This document shows positions 6,601 through 15,698 of a DNA stretch of 26,935 nt, one piece after another. The stretch covers positions 1 to 26,935 of the forward strand of contig JAITOG010000033.1 of assembly GCA_031290075.1 (NCBI GenBank), in the 5' to 3' direction. The position numbers and the translations under genes were made by a program. The stretch is from Holosporales bacterium. GTDB taxonomy: Bacteria > Pseudomonadota > Alphaproteobacteria > BNTO01. The notes under the pieces were generated by a model that was given only the letters and a program-made list of their open reading frames with translations, was not told the DNA's origin and searched no databases. Within the stretch, counting starts at the first letter, position 1; each line of letters starts with the position of its first letter.

Positions 6601-8439
6601 CTATTTTCCTAAGACACTTTGCAAGGTATTTGCTTCAGCATTATTTTTAAAAGGGCCAACTAATACTTTATAGTAAACTTGCCCATTTGGATGCTTTTCA
6701 AAACGAACATTTATATTATATTTACTTAATATCGTATGCTTTTTTCTTAGGTTTAAAATTTCTTTATTTGCCTCTTGCTTAGAGGTAAAAATACCTAACT
6801 GAACATAAAAAAGCTTTTTAGGAGAAACATTATTTTTCTCCGTTTTTTCTCCCCGTTTTTTGATTTTGGAAGCACTTTTTTCTTTTTTTATTAATGTTTT
6901 CTTTTCAACAGTATTATTGGTTGTAAGTGGTTTTCCTTCCAAAGAATTATTTAAAAAAGGAGGAGGCGTTTTTACTTTAATCTTTTCTTCTTCTTTTTTC
7001 TCTAAATATTTTTTTAAATTCTCTTTTTTTGATGATTTATTTGAGTAATCTAAATATTCATCACTTTCAACTTCTTCTTTTTTTTCTTCCCCTTCTCCTT
7101 CATCTTCCCCTTTCTCTTCATCTGTTGGAATATTTGGAGCAAAATTGGTTGTTGGAAGAATATGTTCTTCGCTTTTTTCCTTTTCCTCATTGTGATCAAG
7201 TTTGCCATAAATAAGCTCATCTTGATAAGGAACAAGCTGCATTTCAGATTTTTCTGGTTTTACTTTTATTTTACTTGGAGTTTTAATAACAATTAACTCA
7301 TCATTATTAGATGTAGAAACACCATTGTATACTTTCAAAAATATAATCCCACAAATTATTGAAGACAAAAGGAAAGAGGAAAAAATTATTTTTGCTTTTA
7401 ATATTCCATTAATTTTATAAGGTTCACTTATAGCTTGGGCTTTCTGAAATGAAGACTTTTTCTGTTCTTTCGGGTTTATAATAGGAACTACTTTTTCTGG
7501 GGGATCTAATTTTAGGTTTTTAAAATCGCGAATTTGTTCATTTAAAACTTCTGCTTGAGCATTATTATTATTAACGCTCTTTTTATTTTCCTCATCAAAT
7601 GAAAAGTCTAGTAAACGTTGTTTAAGATCGATTTTGAATGGTTGCGGTTCTTGGCCTAGATTTTTTAATGGCCATGTTGTTGTTTCTTTATATTTTTGCT
7701 GAGAATACGAAGTATTATTCAGGTATGGCGAAGTAGCAAGAGAGAGTTTATTAGACTTTCGTAATTCAATAGGCTTCTTTCGTAACTCAATTTCTTCTGG
7801 GAATTTGTTAGTTGCTTCGATACTCGAATCCTCATGGGGTTTGGGGGGAATCTGTGATCCCCCCAAATGCCCCTCATGTATATTTAGCATACTCCGGTTC
7901 TGCGCTTCGGATGCTCCTTCAAATTTGCCAGAAAAAATAGGTTTCGAAAGTCTATTATAATTATAATTATTATTATCTGAGAAACCTGTTGATGGAAGTA
8001 TACAATCATGGCTTGAGGGAAGGGGAGGAGGAAGTATTTCTTTGTGTATAGATTCTTCTGTAACTTTAGGTGATGGCTGAATTGTAGGAATGAAAACTTG
8101 AGGCTCTTTTCTATTTTTTAAACTACCATTAATCCATTCGGAAAAAGGATCATAATTTTGTTTTTCTTTTAATTTTCCCTCTTTTTTAGTTAGTTTAGGT
8201 GAAGATTTTTTCAAAATAGCGCTACTTTTTGATGCCTTTAATTCGGGGAACAAAGTGTTATGTTCTAAGAAATTATTTTTTTCTGTAGCTTCAATAGGAA
8301 GGTCAGAAAAACTATTTTTTTTTGTTTTTTCTCCTTTTAAAAAATCTACAGACGACGAATCCCATGGATCTTTATCATTCTCTAGAGTATCAGAAAAATA
8401 CGAATTTTTTTCTTCTAGAAAAAAAAATCTCATAACCAC
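6601..8439 (-). CDS. SPOR-domain cell-division protein, FtsN-like, with an in-frame palindromic element insert
   Basis: Single TM (IIFSSFLLSSIICGIIFL) followed by IKVKP..VPYQD..IY. C-terminal SPOR motifs FYVQLGIF...YYKVLVGPF. Long low-complexity N-terminal region. Confidence 0.85.
   Translation of the reverse strand: MVMRFFFLEEKNSYFSDTLENDKDPWDSSSVDFLKGEKTKKNSFSDLPIEATEKNNFLEHNTLFPELKASKSSAILKKSSPKLTKKEGKLKEKQNYDPFSEWINGSLKNRKEPQVFIPTIQPSPKVTEESIHKEILPPPLPSSHDCILPSTGFSDNNNYNYNRLSKPIFSGKFEGASEAQNRSMLNIHEGHLGGSQIPPKPHEDSSIEATNKFPEEIELRKKPIELRKSNKLSLATSPYLNNTSYSQQKYKETTTWPLKNLGQEPQPFKIDLKQRLLDFSFDEENKKSVNNNNAQAEVLNEQIRDFKNLKLDPPEKVVPIINPKEQKKSSFQKAQAISEPYKINGILKAKIIFSSFLLSSIICGIIFLKVYNGVSTSNNDELIVIKTPSKIKVKPEKSEMQLVPYQDELIYGKLDHNEEKEKSEEHILPTTNFAPNIPTDEEKGEDEGEGEEKKEEVESDEYLDYSNKSSKKENLKKYLEKKEEEKIKVKTPPPFLNNSLEGKPLTTNNTVEKKTLIKKEKSASKIKKRGEKTEKNNVSPKKLFYVQLGIFTSKQEANKEILNLRKKHTILSKYNINVRFEKHPNGQVYYKVLVGPFKNNAEANTLQSVLGK
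7770..7954 (-). repeat. Palindromic element type A1 (RPE1-like) inserted in frame in the SPOR gene
   Basis: Homologous across its length to the intergenic copies at 15476 and 21037. Translates as RLSKPIFSGKFEGASEAQNRS...HEDSSIEATNKFPEEIELRKKP. An 18-nt end duplication extends it to 7752. Confidence 0.9.
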
Positions 8440-9780: not shown

Positions 9781-11118
9781 TTACTCGTTTTCTTCTTCTT
9801 CTTCTTCTTCTTTATCTTCGAAAAGGCCTCTTAATTCTTCGTCTATGCAATCATCAACTAAAAGATCAAAAATAAATTCTTCGCAGTCCTCTTCATTTTG
9901 AGAAATTTCTTGTCCAGCTTTAAATTCTCCCAAATCTTTTAAAAATTTTATATTGACTGTTTTTGTTTTAACCTCGTCTTCTCCGATTATTATAGCAAGC
10001 AACACATCAGCTTTATCGCAATACCTAAGTTTTTTGGTAAGTTTGTCGTGTGTGGGAAATAGAATAGAGCCTATTGATTTGGTCCGTAAATCAGTGGCTA
10101 TTTTGAAGGCTTCGTACAACTCAGCTTCAGTAACATTCAAAACCGCAATCTTAATACCAGAACTACCATATTTATCTCCACATGCCACTATAAGTCTATC
10201 TACACCAAAGGCCATTCCAACTGCTGAAATATCAGGCCCTTCAAGATTTTTTACAAGGCTATTATATCTTCCTCCACCACACAAAGCTAGACCATCTTGG
10301 TCAATAAACTCAAATACTGTGTGATCATAATAATCAAGCCCTCTAACTAGGCGTTGGGTATAATCATACTCTATCCCCAATGTTTTCAAGCCTTTTGTAA
10401 CTTGAGATATAAAATTTATAGCATTTGCAGAAAGGTAATCAAAAATTAAGGGAGCCCCTTCACAAATTTTTTTATCACCGGAATCTTTAGAGTCTAGTAT
10501 TCTTAAGGGGTTTTCCTTTAACCTGCGTACACTATCCTCGGATAAATCCTTTTCATACTTTTTCAAATACTCTACTAAAACTTGTTTGTATTTTTCTCGT
10601 GTTTCCTTATCTCCAACTGTATTTACAATCAATTTTGCATGTATTTTTAATTCATCAAGTGCGGATTTTGTAAATGCAATAATTTCAACATCACTAATTG
10701 GGGAATCAGAACCAATGCATTCAATACCAAATTGATAAAATTGCCGATAACGTCCTTTTTGAGGGCGGTCGTATCGAAACATTGGCCCATAATAAAACAG
10801 TTTTTGAGGAAGATCTTGAGTAAGATTATTAGAAATTAAGGCACGTACAGTAGATGCTGTTCCTTCTGGACGTAAAGATAAACTGTTTTCTGAACGATCC
10901 AAAAACGAAAACATTTCTTTTCCCACAACATCTGTTTCTTCTCCAATTCCTTTTACAAAAAGACTTGTCTTTTCAAGAATTGGAGTTTCTAGAAAATTAT
11001 ATCCATAGTCCAAAGCCAATTTTTCAAGTTTTCGTATAATAAACCGAAAGGAATTAGCATCACTACCAATTAAATCTCTCATGCCGCGAACAGTTCCAAA
11101 TTTTTCCAGATTAGACAT
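9781..11118 (-). CDS. hisS: Histidyl-tRNA synthetase
   Basis: VRGMRD, LRPEGTA, YYGPMFRYDRPQKGRYRQFYQFG, LVRGLDYY, GGGRYN and GMAFGVDR. GGAG RBS 8 nt before the ATG. Confidence 0.97.
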   Translation of the reverse strand: MSNLEKFGTVRGMRDLIGSDANSFRFIIRKLEKLALDYGYNFLETPILEKTSLFVKGIGEETDVVGKEMFSFLDRSENSLSLRPEGTASTVRALISNNLTQDLPQKLFYYGPMFRYDRPQKGRYRQFYQFGIECIGSDSPISDVEIIAFTKSALDELKIHAKLIVNTVGDKETREKYKQVLVEYLKKYEKDLSEDSVRRLKENPLRILDSKDSGDKKICEGAPLIFDYLSANAINFISQVTKGLKTLGIEYDYTQRLVRGLDYYDHTVFEFIDQDGLALCGGGRYNSLVKNLEGPDISAVGMAFGVDRLIVACGDKYGSSGIKIAVLNVTEAELYEAFKIATDLRTKSIGSILFPTHDKLTKKLRYCDKADVLLAIIIGEDEVKTKTVNIKFLKDLGEFKAGQEISQNEEDCEEFIFDLLVDDCIDEELRGLFEDKEEEEEEENE

Positions 11119-11311: not shown

Positions 11312-11406
11312 TATATTGGGGGCCCCAAAGAATGCGGATTTTAATTACTGCCAATCCTTTTTAATCCAAGAAGTTTGAATCCGCAATTTTTTGGGGTTTG
11401 GGTATA
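11312..11406 (+). repeat. 95-bp palindromic element type B, copy 1
   Basis: tatattgggggccccaaagaatgcggattttaa...aatccgcaattttttggggtttgggtata, with internal IR tgcggatt/aatccgca. Four copies in the window, all 95 bp. Confidence 0.9.
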
Positions 11407-11511
11407 CACTAGCAATTGCACAAAATAAAGTTTTTGGTAAATTTCTAGTAAAAATGGTACATAACGTATCTAATAAAAACCAATAAAATTGATCTAAAAT
11501 TTCGCGTTTTT

Positions 11512-12633
11512 TTATTTATTTTCCTTTGTTGCAATTAAAGCCGCTTCTAAAAAGCAATCAATATTGCCATCAAGCACCCCAAGCGCATTTCCAATTTCCA
11601 CGTTCGTCCTTGCATCCTTTACAAGTTGGTAAGGTTGCAAAACATAAGATCTAATTTGGCTTCCCCAAGCAATGTCCGCTTTATTTTTTTCTTGTTCATC
11701 AACTTTGGCCTGTTTTTTTCTTTGCTCTGCTTCATAAAGCTTAGCTTTTAGCATTGCCATTGCTGTTGCCCTATTGCGGTGCTGAGAACGGTCAATTTGG
11801 CACGAAACAATAATTCCCGTTGGAATGTGGGTTATTCTAATTGCGCTATCCGTTTTATTTACATGCTGCCCCCCGGCTCCGGAAGAACGGAAGGTATCGA
11901 CGTGTAAGTCTTTTTCTTCAATTTTAATATCAATACTTTCGTTGATTTCAGGGTATGTCCAAACGGAGGCGAAGCTTGTGTGACGGCGAGCGTTGGCGTC
12001 AAAAGGAGAGATTCTTACAAGTCTATGAACCCCATTTTCTGTTTTTAGCCAGCCATAGGCTTGAGAGCCCGAAATTTTCAGATTTATTGACTTAAACCCG
12101 GCTTCTTCTCCAATGGTTTCGTCAATTATTTCTACTTTAAAATGGCGCTCCTCAGCCCACCTTGAATACATCCTGGCAAGGATAGCAACCCAGTCTTGGG
12201 CTTCTGTTCCTCCAGCTCCTGAATTTATTTCTAGAAAACAATTACAAAAATCGGTTTCTTCAGATAACAAAAGCTCAATGCGAAGTTTTTCAAGTGTTGC
12301 TTCTAGGGATTGCAAATCTTGGCAACAAGTATCGAAGACCTGCTCATCATCTTCTTCCTTTGCAATTTCCAATAGGGCACACAAATCTGTGAAATCACGT
12401 ATATGCGCAGAAATTTTTTTAACTTCATCCTCAAGGTGAGACTTTTTCTTCATAATTTTATTGGCTTTTTGTGGATCATCCCAGAAGGAGGAAGATTGAA
12501 CCAATTCTTTATAACCAGACAACTCCCCTACTTTTCTCTCAAAATTTGAAGAAATTTTTATATCTTCAAGCTTTTTTGTAATATTTTCAATAAGCAGAGG
12601 AGCGTTAAAGTTATTTAGTCAAAACTGCGACAT
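11512..12633 (-). CDS. prfB: Peptide chain release factor 2; true start uncertain, in-frame TGA at 12619-12621
   Basis: GAGGTEAQDW, SPF (RISPFDANARRHTSFASV), GGQHVNKTDSAIRITH and WGSQIRSYV. The frame is open upstream of the track start (TTG 12522) to TGA 12621-12619. In-frame ATGs lie beyond it at 12633 and 12669. Confidence 0.95.
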
Positions 12634-12791
12634 GTGGAATACCTGTGAAACAAAGGAATGAAATCTCATTAACTCAATAGTCCCTATTTTTCAAACGAAA
12701 TGCAAGAAAAAAATAGATAAGAAAAAATAAACATTTTTTTTATTTATCTAAATTATAATTATACTTATGAATAAATATTTCAAATATAGCA

Positions 12792-14441
12792 ATGCTTTTT
12801 AGTACTGAAGAATTTTTTCAAGAAATATTATTAAATAGAAATTTAGTTTCTATTGATCAAACACTTATTGTTCAAAAAGAATTGAAAAAGAAAAAAAATA
12901 GTTATTCTTCAATTAATACTCCTTTAAGGTTAGATGAAATATACATTAAATTTGGTTTTATTTCTCAACAGGCAGCCCAACAAATCCTTACAGAAATAAC
13001 AGGCTTTCAATATATTGATCTTAATGAATTACGTCTTAATAAAGATATTTTTCGATTAATTGATGAAAAAATCCAAAAAAATTGTTTTTCTGTTGTTTTT
13101 GATTACTTTGAACAAATATTGAAAATTGCGATGTATGATCCTGAAGATTTATCTTTAAAGGATGTTCTTTTACAAAGTATTTCCTCTTCTAATGTTTTTG
13201 GGCCAAATACAAAAATTACATTTTTTTATGCAAATAAGGTAGAAATTTTAAAAATTTACAAAAATTTTTGCGTTTTTGATGAAAAAAATGAAAAAAACTA
13301 CATTTCTGAAAATAACGCCGATCTCAACTATTATAATGTAGTTGATTCGATTGATACCATTTTACAAGAAGCTGTTGCTAATAATGCTTCTGATGTACAC
13401 TTTCACCCAGAGCAATTTGTTGTTCGCGTACGACAAAGGATTGATGGGATTTTGCACACAGATTGCAGTATTCACAAAGATGTTTGGCGTAATTTTTTAG
13501 TCCGTTTTAAAATCCTTTCTAATTTGGATATTTCAGAATCGCGCCGCCCGCAATCAGGACATTTTGAAAAAGAAGTAAATGGAAAAATGTGTGATTTCCG
13601 AGTTTCTACACATCCAACGGTTTTTGGAGAAAGTATAGTTATTAGGATTCTTCAAAAAAATAGAAAGATACTTACGCTTGACCAGCTAGGATTTGAAGAA
13701 AAAGTTGTGGAGCAATTAAAAAATATAATAAAAGCTCCACATGGGTTGATCTTACTTTGTGGTCCTACAGGTTCTGGAAAGACTACGACTTTATATACTT
13801 TGTGTTCTTGCTTAAATTCAGAAACTCTAAATGTTATGACTTTGGAGGATCCTATTGAATCTTTGTTAAACGGCATAAGGCAAACAGAAATAAGAGAAAA
13901 CGGCGTTTTGAGTTTTACAGAAGGAATTCGCTCTATTTTAAGGCAAGACCCTGATGTAATTTTTATTGGGGAAATTCGAGATGAGGATACGGCTCAGATT
14001 GCTTTAAGAGCTTCATTAACGGGGCATCTTGTGCTATCTACCTTGCATGTTAATGACGTTCTTCATATTCCTAATCGCCTATATGATCTCGGCTTAAAAC
14101 CTTTGATGCTTTCTGGGCAGCTTTTGTTTTTAATGTCTCAACGTCTTGCAAGAAAAATTTGCGTAAATTGTAGTGGAAAAGGGTGTAAACAATGTAAAAA
14201 TAGCGGGTTTAAAGGGCGCTTTGCTATTACTGAAACGCTGGAAATTAATGCTGAAATAGACAGATTAATTTTAGAGCAAGCGTCTATTCAAACACTTTTT
14301 GAAACAGCTAGAAAATATGGATTTAATACAATGTATGAAGGTGGCATGGAAAGAGTTAAGCAAGGCCTTACAACTAGGCAGGAAATTGATAGGCTAGTAA
14401 AAAATGTATATACTGGGGTCCCCAAAGAATGCGGATTTTAA
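12792..14441 (+). CDS. GspE/PilB-family secretion or pilus assembly ATPase
   Basis: ASDVHFHP, RQRIDG, RRPQSG, Walker A GPTGSGKTT, TLEDPIE, LRQDPDVIFIGEIRD, TGHLVLSTLH and a CxxC..CxxC zinc motif. Confidence 0.93.
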   Translation: MLFSTEEFFQEILLNRNLVSIDQTLIVQKELKKKKNSYSSINTPLRLDEIYIKFGFISQQAAQQILTEITGFQYIDLNELRLNKDIFRLIDEKIQKNCFSVVFDYFEQILKIAMYDPEDLSLKDVLLQSISSSNVFGPNTKITFFYANKVEILKIYKNFCVFDEKNEKNYISENNADLNYYNVVDSIDTILQEAVANNASDVHFHPEQFVVRVRQRIDGILHTDCSIHKDVWRNFLVRFKILSNLDISESRRPQSGHFEKEVNGKMCDFRVSTHPTVFGESIVIRILQKNRKILTLDQLGFEEKVVEQLKNIIKAPHGLILLCGPTGSGKTTTLYTLCSCLNSETLNVMTLEDPIESLLNGIRQTEIRENGVLSFTEGIRSILRQDPDVIFIGEIRDEDTAQIALRASLTGHLVLSTLHVNDVLHIPNRLYDLGLKPLMLSGQLLFLMSQRLARKICVNCSGKGCKQCKNSGFKGRFAITETLEINAEIDRLILEQASIQTLFETARKYGFNTMYEGGMERVKQGLTTRQEIDRLVKNVYTGVPKECGF

Positions 14442-14503
14442 TTACTGCCAATCCCTTGAAACCCAAGAAGTTTGAATCCGCAATTTTTTTGGGTTTGGGT
14501 ATA
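14409..14503 (+). repeat. 95-bp palindromic element type B, copy 2 (supplies the last codons and stop of the ATPase)
   Basis: tatactggggtccccaaagaatgcggattttaa encodes YTGVPKECGF*, the end of the 12792..14441 ORF. Confidence 0.92.
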
Positions 14504-14599
14504 CGGAAGCATGAGAGAAAGAGAGACTGTAAAAAATTTGCGTAAATTATAATTCTCGTTTTAAAGGAGTAGTATCCTTTTTAAGAAGCAGCATCACTT

Positions 14600-15349: not shown

Positions 15350-15475
15350 TCTAATAGAAAAGTAATTAACAAAGGCTCTCTTCAAAATTCTATGAAAAAA
15401 AATATAGAAAGTAAAAGAAAAAAGTAAATTGTGTGTGTTATTTTTTTTGTTCTCTTCATTTTCCGTATTTTTGAA

Positions 15476-15659
15476 TAGATTTCCTTCGAAACTAATTTCT
15501 TCTAGCAAAGTTGAAGGAGCATACGAAGCGCAGAACCGGAGTGTATAAATACATGAGGGGAATTTGGGGAAATCTGTGATTCCCCCCAAACCCCATGAGG
15601 ATTCGAGCATCGAAGCGACGAACAAATTTGCAGAAGAAATTAGTTTCGAAGGAAGTCTA
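15476..15659 (+). repeat. Palindromic element type A1 (RPE1-like), intergenic copy
   Basis: Arms tagatttccttcgaaactaatttcttct / agaagaaattagtttcgaaggaagtcta. Nearly identical to 21037..21221. Confidence 0.93.
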
Positions 15660-15698
15660 ATTTTAGATTACAATTTTTCTTTCTAAATTAGAAAATAA

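What the first reader, a model, noticed from the sequence alone, without database searches (positions are those of the whole stretch)
14409..14441. A mobile repeat gives the same C-terminal tail to two unrelated proteins
Seen: the ATPase ends ...KNV-YTGVPKECGF* and TrcR/DUF1013 (24676-24708) ends ...TEK-YTEASKECGF*. Both tails and both stops are encoded by the 95-bp element in the same frame. Inference: either this frame is tolerated best because it gives the shortest tail, or the element acts as a mobile C-terminal tag (degron, interaction motif, free Cys) plus a 3' hairpin. It is not a CaaX motif, since the Cys is at -3.
Basis: partly seen in the sequence, partly recalled or inferred. Interest (0 to 1): 0.7.

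Follow-up and report, generated by a model that had tools for sequence, protein, structure and literature searches.

The report
Jumping element gives proteins one tail
A small non-coding jumping element that always lands on the letters TA has landed on or near the stop codons of several unrelated genes in a termite-gut symbiont, so they all end in the same ten amino acids; this is a known, probably accidental side effect and not a purpose-built protein tag.

Summary
Observation confirmed. The secretion-type ATPase (12792-14441, +) ends ...KNV-YTGVPKECGF* and TrcR (24676-25245, -) ends ...TEK-YTEASKECGF*. In both, the tail and the stop lie in the same frame of a ~95-nt hairpin repeat.

The repeat is a MITE: 168 hits and 147 full copies in this 820-kb, 78%-complete genome. 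Nine ungapped empty-site comparisons show that it duplicates a TA target. Landing on the TA of a stop or Tyr codon gives TA+T = Tyr, then nine element codons, then TAA.

Six ORFs of at least 100 aa carry the tail. Five are recognisable housekeeping genes: the ATPase, TrcR, TrmD, RecD2 and FabD. Removing the element plus one TA restores a stop for TrcR exactly where its orthologues end.

Stop-codon hits number 3-4. TA-site density alone predicts about 4. All gene-end overlaps are in the orientation that stops soonest (7 vs 0). Intergenic copies show no orientation bias (54 vs 65). The tail peptide shows no sign of protein-level constraint.

A mobile functional tag is therefore unsupported; "shortest tail is tolerated" is supported. 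The same effect is published for Coxiella QMITE1, and this scan has met it before on other DNA. The element is a new, lineage-restricted MITE family of a known kind.

The parts
14409..14503 (+). MITE copy (95 nt, TA...TA included) inserted in a TAC (Tyr) codon near the 3' end of the ATPase gene
   Evidence: (I2, I4, D3)
14409..14441 (+). Element-encoded tail YTGVPKECGF plus TAA stop of the ATPase (the finding's coordinates)
12792..14441 (+). Type II/IV secretion-family ATPase gene (PF00437), 549 aa with the tail
   Evidence: orthologue C-termini
14504..14552 (+). Presumed displaced native 3' end: read from the 3' TA copy it gives Y-GSMRERETVKNLRKL-stop (inferred, not shown)
   Evidence: a 16-codon open frame is not by itself significant
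24614..24708 (-). MITE copy inserted in the stop codon of trcR; 3' end degenerate (GTGTG instead of GTATA)
   Evidence: (I4, I5)
24676..24708 (-). Element-encoded tail YTEASKECGF plus TAA stop of TrcR
24676..25245 (-). trcR / DUF1013 gene (PF06242); the public gene call starts at Met13 (177 aa)
   Evidence: orthologue ends
11312..11406 (+). Intergenic copy of the same MITE
18505..18599 (-). Intergenic copy of the same MITE

Best explanation
A 93-95-nt non-autonomous transposon (MITE) has recently multiplied in this termite-gut Holosporales-like genome. Its terminal inverted repeats pair into a long hairpin. It inserts at TA dinucleotides and duplicates the TA (shown). Every TAA or TAG stop codon and every TAY Tyr codon offers a TA at codon positions 1-2. 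A hit there turns the codon into TA+T = Tyr and continues in one fixed phase of the element. In one orientation that phase reads ACT GGG GCC CCC AAA GAA TGC GGA TTT TAA, giving a 10-residue tail and a new stop (shown). In the other orientation, and in the other phases, the reading runs 15 to more than 31 codons. Insertions that add only the short tail at, or just past, the end of the conserved domain are mild enough to survive; the others are purged (inferred). The shared YTGAPKECGF tail is therefore a by-product of target choice plus purifying selection, not a selected tag. KECGF looks conserved because those bases form the stem of the hairpin in all copies, coding or not.
For: The element is a MITE: 168 hits and 147 full copies, about 95% alike, with sharp ends TATAC...GTATA. 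The arms pair in the fold. The TA duplication is shown by 42 copies nested in other repeats. In 9 of them the flanks joined by a single TA match an uninterrupted copy without a gap, at three or more distinct sites. Removing the element plus one TA restores a stop for TrcR (TAA), RecD2 (TAG), a 159-aa ORF (TAA) and an IcmF-like gene (TAG), and a Tyr codon for the ATPase, TrmD and FabD. TrcR orthologues end 0-4 residues after the insertion point. ATPase orthologues have short, unconserved tails of 4-13 residues there. Six ORFs of at least 100 aa end in KEC-x-x, five with clear Pfam families. With 16,686 intergenic TA sites, 129 intergenic copies and 514 TA-containing stop codons, about 4.0 stop-codon hits are expected; 3-4 are observed. 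Gene-end overlaps are 7 forward and 0 reverse (binomial p=0.016). Intergenic copies downstream of genes are 54 forward and 65 reverse. 97 of 147 copies keep the 11-codon frame wherever they lie. Identity to consensus over the tail-coding 33 nt is 0.96 in coding copies and 0.92 in non-coding copies, and the coding copies carry 5 non-synonymous and 1 synonymous change. IS630-type DDE_3 relics are present in the genome. Published precedent: Coxiella QMITE1 gives pntAA and CBU_2058 the same tail (PMC5896051). RUP of pneumococcus is a TA-targeting MITE attributed to IS630-Spn1 (PMC2229807).
Against: No empty-site allele of trcR or the ATPase gene itself was found, so the pre-insertion states are reconstructions. 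Gene calls are crude (ORFs of at least 100 aa, chosen greedily). The numbers are small (5-7 genes). The genome is a 78%-complete MAG in 115 contigs that break at repeats. For the three Tyr-codon cases the neutral expectation for this phase and orientation is about 1.4, and about 21 for the other phases or the reverse orientation within the last 20 codons. None of those others was seen among Pfam-recognisable genes except one truncated copy in a Metallophos gene. That skew is stronger than a 10- versus 15-codon difference would obviously explain. No intact transposase with matching ends was found. The left flank shows an unexplained A preference at -1. Nothing here tests whether the tail affects the proteins.
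Confidence: 0.85

Rival explanations
1. The element is built as a 'safe-landing' cassette. Selection among element lineages favoured a variant whose phase-0 frame (the one forced by landing on a stop codon) ends after ten codons, so copies in gene-dense DNA survive. The tail has no use to the host, but the early stop is an adaptation of the element.
For: The TA target forces phase 0 at stop codons. Phase 0 in the forward orientation is the shortest of six frames, and all gene-end copies use it. The genome is compact, about 78% coding by crude calls.
Against: The reverse orientation has no such early stop, so half of all stop-codon landings would still be harmful. The TAA sits in the conserved hairpin stem-loop junction and needs no extra explanation. 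The related element in genus g7 shares the termini, but its frames were not analysed. No comparison across element families was made.
Confidence: 0.1
2. The tail is a functional mobile C-terminal tag (a degron, an interaction or localisation motif, or a reactive Cys) that the host has recruited on several proteins.
For: Six ORFs share it. All overlaps use one frame and orientation. The tail ends in an apolar residue and carries a Cys.
Against: The count of stop-codon hits equals the neutral expectation. The tagged proteins (secretion ATPase, TrcR, TrmD, RecD2, FabD) have nothing in common. The tail is absent from every orthologue examined, including 120 TrcR homologues. Three of five tails carry non-synonymous changes, including GF to RS at the very end of TrmD. 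The motif is equally conserved in about 140 non-coding copies. The element was found in no other genome searched.
Confidence: 0.04
3. What matters is the RNA. The hairpin at the 3' end of these mRNAs acts as a terminator, stabiliser or RNase III site, and insertions at gene ends are kept for that reason. The peptide is incidental.
For: The arms pair over about 30 bp. Such effects are reported for Correia and ERIC elements and proposed for QMITE2 (PMC5896051; PMC2229807).
Against: Downstream of genes the two orientations are equally common (54 vs 65). Fold energy is only z=-1.4 against shuffles. There are no RNA data. This reading would not explain the frame restriction.
Confidence: 0.1
4. Assembly artefact: contigs of this MAG were joined wrongly through the repeat, so the gene-to-element junctions are not real.
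For: The genome is a fragmented MAG, and independent contigs of the one holding run break inside every repeat copy.
Against: An independent contig of the run covers 24666-25398, that is trcR, the whole tail and the stop, with 43 nt on the element side. Another covers 11380-14434, reaching 26 nt into the ATPase copy (table 8). Each junction has its own unique flank and its own point differences.
Confidence: 0.02

Closest known systems
QMITE1 / QMITE2 of Coxiella burnetii (PMC5896051)
   Same: Small hairpin MITEs in a reduced intracellular genome overlap the 3' ends of unrelated functional genes and supply C-terminal residues plus the stop. Two genes (pntAA, CBU_2058) share one QMITE1-derived tail.
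   Different: No sequence similarity and a different host lineage (Gammaproteobacteria). A TA target and a fixed entry phase are not described in the passages of that paper that I read. Here one frame accounts for nearly all cases.
RUP (repeat unit of pneumococcus), attributed to IS630-Spn1 (PMC2229807)
   Same: A roughly 100-bp MITE in about 100 copies that inserts at TA. It often lands in other mobile elements; here 42 copies sit inside RPE1-like repeats.
   Different: RUP is reported to have stop codons in all six frames and to lie intergenically. For RUP a resident IS with matching ends is known. Here only IS630-type transposase relics were found.
Rickettsia palindromic elements (RPE; Ogata et al. 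2000, as summarised in PMC2229807 and PMC10969869)
   Same: Palindromic repeats of an alphaproteobacterial endosymbiont that are translated as part of housekeeping proteins.
   Different: RPEs are about 150 bp and sit in frame inside genes as internal inserts. This element mostly adds a terminal tail plus stop. Its commonest length adds 92 nt, which is not a multiple of three. Its open frames do not match the NCBIfam models, including RPE1 TIGR01045.
Correia elements (CREE/NEMIS) of Neisseria
   Same: From my own knowledge, only partly checked in PMC2229807: TA-flanked hairpin MITEs with ends beginning TATAG, found at gene ends, that affect transcripts and sometimes fuse to ORFs.
   Different: No sequence similarity was tested. 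Correia elements carry IHF sites and promoters, and none was looked for here.

Membership tests
MITE (miniature inverted-repeat transposable element) | Small size, under about 300 bp, with no transposase coding capacity | tested here: met
   93-95 nt. The longest internal frame is 31 codons, with no family match.
MITE (miniature inverted-repeat transposable element) | Terminal inverted repeats | tested here: met
   TATACTGGGGCCCCCAAAGAATGCGGATT pairs with AATCCGCAATTTTTTGGGGTTTGGGTATA.
MITE (miniature inverted-repeat transposable element) | Target-site duplication shown against empty sites | tested here: met
   A TA duplication. Nine ungapped matches of flank+TA+flank to uninterrupted repeat copies, at three or more distinct sites.
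MITE (miniature inverted-repeat transposable element) | Many dispersed, similar copies | tested here: met
   168 hits and 147 full copies on most contigs, about 94-98% identical.
IS630 / Tc1-mariner-derived MITE | TA target duplicated on insertion | tested here: met
IS630 / Tc1-mariner-derived MITE | A resident IS630-family element whose ends match the MITE ends | tested here: inconclusive
   Only two short DDE_3 relics were found (C64:7260-7358, 32.5 bits, motif LPPYSPELNPVERFW; C30:2437-2520). No intact gene and no matching ends were found in this 78%-complete MAG.
Rickettsia palindromic elements (RPE1-10) | Sequence similarity to an RPE family | tested here: not met
   The two open frames of the ATPase copy (one per strand) match nothing in NCBIfam, which holds TIGR01045 RPE1. 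There was no DNA match in 400 sampled genomes of the class.
Rickettsia palindromic elements (RPE1-10) | In-frame internal insertion that keeps the downstream protein | tested here: not met
   No internal in-frame insert was found in a Pfam-recognisable gene. The 'inside' cases are 103-146-aa ORFs without families, plus one truncated copy near a gene end.
CaaX prenylation box | Cys at position -4 from the C-terminus | tested here: not met
   The tail ends C-G-F, with Cys at -3.
Selected C-terminal tag (for example a degron) | Peptide-level constraint, or enrichment beyond insertion opportunity | tested here: not met
   3-4 stop-codon hits were observed against about 4 expected. The five tails carry 5 non-synonymous and 1 synonymous change, and the non-coding copies are equally conserved.

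The most novel reading that the evidence does not exclude
The early stop in the one frame that a TA-targeting element is forced into when it lands on a stop codon is an adaptation of the element: a built-in 'safe-landing' terminator. It would let the element colonise the only abundant harmless TA sites of a gene-dense endosymbiont genome. Alternatively, and less likely, the ten-residue tail has been recruited as a tag.
Probability: 0.12. Interest if true: 0.5.

Novelty: new member of a known kind. Interest (0 to 1): 0.22.

Why it matters
The finding shows in one clean case how a target preference (TA) plus the genetic code (stops and Tyr begin with TA) fixes the reading frame in which a mobile element is translated. 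Identical tails on unrelated proteins therefore need no functional explanation. For annotation, about six proteins of this genome carry a non-native C-terminus, and homology-based end points should be preferred when modelling them. The nested copies give exact empty sites, so the family can be described properly. It is not a new kind of biology: the effect is published for Coxiella QMITEs, and this scan has met it before in chlamydial, Saccharibacteria and CPR genomes.

Tried and rejected
1. The scans of genome contigs and metagenome contigs used the gapped pattern AATGCGGATT..AATCCGCAATT. They returned only unrelated inverted arrays of the heptamer AATCCGC in Acidobacteriota, Latescibacterota and others. 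nhmmer E-values against the element model were 0.015 or worse. The pattern was badly chosen and both scans are spent, so the wider distribution of the element rests only on the genome search.

2. A search for a same-species TrcR without the tail, which would give an empty site, failed. The nearest other homologue is 68-70% identical.

3. Sequencing runs: one termite-gut DNA run holds the region and no RNA holder is listed. Its contigs break in every repeat copy and show no joint that skips an element. This gives no information on empty-site alleles or on expression.

4. The plasmid collection had no match. Rfam found only three tRNAs in the window.

5. The reverse-orientation phase-0 candidate (C77:4145-4570, 141 aa) overlaps a 691-aa gene on the other strand and was treated as spurious.

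6. Several 103-146-aa ORFs that contain whole copies have no Pfam family and were treated as artefacts of the element's open frames.

7. The open frames downstream of the element (16 codons after the ATPase copy, 58 after the FabD copy) were considered as displaced native ends. The first is not significant by length, and the second looks like junk sequence. Neither is claimed.

Full report
WHAT IS THERE

The window is AT-rich DNA from an 820-kb, 33% GC, 115-contig genome that is 78% complete. The only public run that holds it is a termite-gut metagenome. Its proteins are closest to MAGs labelled Holosporales or Alphaproteobacteria.

The ORF at 12792-14441 (+) is a type II/IV secretion-family ATPase (PF00437, E=6.8e-111). 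It ends ...DRLVKNVYTGVPKECGF*. The ORF at 24676-25245 (-) is TrcR/DUF1013 (PF06242). It ends ...DCLTEKYTEASKECGF*.

The last 33 nt of each gene are the first 33 nt of a repeat copy, at 14409-14503 (+) and 24614-24708 (-). The two copies are 91% complementary over 93 nt (I4). They are read in the same frame.

WHAT THE REPEAT IS

Two further copies lie between genes in the window, at 11312-11406 (+) and 18505-18599 (-). A profile built from the four copies finds 168 hits in the genome, 147 of them full length. Alignment of 141 copies with their flanks shows sharp borders. Conservation starts at TATAC and stops at GTATA. The outer roughly 30 nt of the two ends are inverted repeats that pair into a long hairpin. 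Lengths are 94 nt (73 copies), 95 nt (38 copies) and 93 nt (23 copies).

The target-site duplication could be read directly. Forty-two copies sit inside other repeats, mostly the RPE1-like family noted earlier on this window. For nine of them, the left flank plus a single TA plus the right flank matches an uninterrupted copy of the host repeat with no gap. Examples are CTTCG-TA-TGCTCC and CATG-TA-TATCT.

The element is therefore a MITE that inserts at TA and duplicates it. It was not found in the nine other genomes of its order, nor in 400 sampled genomes of its class. One genus (g7) has a different element with the same roughly 28-nt ends. Its open frames match no NCBIfam model, including RPE1.

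The genome holds two short relics of IS630-type (DDE_3) transposases, one with the motif LPPYSPELNPVERFW. No intact gene was found. An IS630-like parent is plausible but not shown.

WHY THE SAME FRAME

A TA target at codon positions 1-2 exists in every TAA or TAG stop and every TAY Tyr codon. After insertion the codon becomes TA (host) plus T (element), which is Tyr. The ribosome then continues in a fixed phase.

- Forward orientation: ACT GGG GCC CCC AAA GAA TGC GGA TTT TAA, that is ten residues and a stop.
- Other entries, in the 94-nt consensus: two stop after 15 or 20 codons, and the rest, including phase 0 in reverse orientation, run through the whole element (and direct reading of the consensus).

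Removing the element plus one TA gives these pre-insertion readings:

- TrcR: ...LTEK-stop.
- RecD2-type helicase (G000:C18:17278-19497): ...LQVL-stop.
- A 159-aa ORF: ...FFRK-stop.
- A 1461-aa IcmF-like gene: ...GGV-stop.
- ATPase, TrmD (C18:14478-15200) and FabD (C34:695-1636): a Tyr codon a few residues before the end.

TrcR orthologues from eight genomes of the same family and 30 database homologues end 0-4 residues after the insertion point. None of 120 homologues has the tail. ATPase orthologues end 4-13 unconserved residues after the last conserved block, and the element sits 4 residues after it. The insertions are therefore at, or just beyond, the end of the conserved protein.

A six-frame scan finds six ORFs of at least 100 aa ending in KEC-x-x. 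They are the ATPase, TrcR, TrmD, RecD2, FabD and a 282-aa ORF that was not scanned against any family library.

I made crude gene calls: 621 ORFs of at least 100 aa, covering 78% of the genome. Against these, the 147 full copies fall as follows: 129 between genes, 7 over a gene's 3' end, 7 inside ORFs and 4 over ORF starts. All 7 at a 3' end are in the forward orientation. Six of the 7 enter in phase 0. The seventh, on the IcmF-like gene, has its stop at the junction itself.

The ORFs that contain whole copies are short and have no Pfam family. The one clear exception in another frame is a Metallophos gene that runs through a truncated 71-nt copy.

Opportunity was estimated as follows. There are 16,686 intergenic TA sites carrying 129 copies, and 514 stop codons containing TA. 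This predicts about 4.0 stop-codon hits, or 2.0 per orientation. Three to four are seen forward and none reverse. The number of tagged genes is therefore what chance landing predicts.

What is not random is the orientation and phase: 7 vs 0, binomial p=0.016. Downstream of genes but outside them, the two orientations are equally common (54 vs 65). The bias is therefore specific to copies that are translated, as expected if long read-through tails are selected against.

NO SIGN OF A SELECTED PEPTIDE

97 of 147 copies keep the 11-codon frame wherever they are. The tail-coding 33 nt are 96% identical to consensus in the five coding copies and 92% in the non-coding ones. The coding copies carry five non-synonymous changes and one synonymous change: G to E and P to S in TrcR, A to V in the ATPase, G to R and F to S in TrmD. 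KECGF is encoded by AAAGAATGCGGATTT, which is the best-conserved part of the hairpin stem in all copies. The tagged proteins share no pathway or location. Cys is at -3, so the tail is not a CaaX box.

COMPARISON WITH WHAT IS KNOWN

- Coxiella burnetii QMITE1 and QMITE2 overlap the 3' ends of functional genes and confer C-terminal residues and stops. pntAA and CBU_2058 share one QMITE1-derived tail (PMC5896051).
- RUP of pneumococcus is a roughly 107-bp MITE that targets TA and is attributed to IS630-Spn1 (PMC2229807).
- RPEs of Rickettsia are translated inside housekeeping proteins (PMC2229807, PMC10969869).
- This scan has also reported TA-targeting MITEs on stop codons in other genomes.

The present element is a new, lineage-restricted family of this known kind. 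The small addition is the explicit link between the TA target, the codon phase and the shared tail.

LIMITS

The genome is a fragmented MAG, the gene calls are crude and the numbers are small. No empty-site allele of the two genes themselves was found, no RNA or protein data exist, and no intact transposase was found. My two large pattern scans were wasted on an unrelated heptamer hairpin repeat. Independent contigs of the holding run confirm the trcR-tail junction fully and the ATPase junction partly.

VERDICT

The 'shortest tail is tolerated' reading is supported and is completed by the TA-target mechanism. The 'mobile functional tag' reading is unsupported.

Noticed in passing
G000 contigs, e.g. 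C59:2315-2409, C76:955-1049, C79:1512-1606; in the window, the RPE1-like copies at 7788-7950, 15470-15660 and 21030-21225 are uninterrupted examples of the host repeat: 42 of 147 MITE copies are nested in other repeats (mostly the RPE1-like family) at three recurring TA sites: CATG-TA-TATCT, CTTCG-TA-TGCTCC and GACG-TA-AAAA. These are either insertion hot spots or composite units that were later copied as a whole.
   Followed up: partly
G000:C64:7260-7358 (-) and G000:C30:2437-2520 (-) (loci L260, L261): Short relics of IS630-type DDE_3 transposases (LPPYSPELNPVERFW). The first lies next to an RPE-like fragment and a full MITE copy (C64:7078-7173). No intact transposase gene was seen.
   Followed up: partly
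L002 (G009:C137:2279-2396), L004, L254: A related genus has a different small element with the same roughly 28-nt ends (TATACACCGGGGTCCCCAAAGGATGCGAATC) but another core, partly in tandem. This suggests one transposase type serves several MITE families in this bacterial family.
   Followed up: partly
L033-L250 (genome contigs and metagenome-contig hits): More than 200 contigs from Acidobacteriota (Pyrinomonadaceae), Latescibacterota, Planctomycetota, Nitrospirota and others carry hairpins built from inverted arrays of the heptamer GCGGATT/AATCCGC, with many copies per genome. They are unrelated to this MITE, and I did not identify them.
   Followed up: no
G000:C34:5729-10114 (+), element at 10111-10205: A 1461-aa IcmF-related gene stops at a TAA formed exactly at the junction with a TATAAC variant of the element end. 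It therefore escaped the tail. The same variant end occurs at C105:3153.
   Followed up: partly
G000:C19:12283-13890 (+), element remnant 13760-13830: A Metallophos-family gene reads through a truncated 71-nt copy in another frame and orientation, which gives it a 42-residue tail. It is the only clear translated copy outside the KECGF frame.
   Followed up: partly
flanks of 74 full copies genome-wide: The base just left of the 5' TA is A in 55 of 74 copies and the one before it is T in 38 of 74. The right flank is unbiased. This asymmetry is unexplained. It may come from the shared nested sites or from a longer left end.
   Followed up: no
window 14504-14552: Read from the 3' TA copy, the DNA after the ATPase element stays open for 16 codons (YGSMRERETVKNLRKL-stop). 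It is possibly the displaced native tail, and it is longer than any orthologue's tail.
   Followed up: partly
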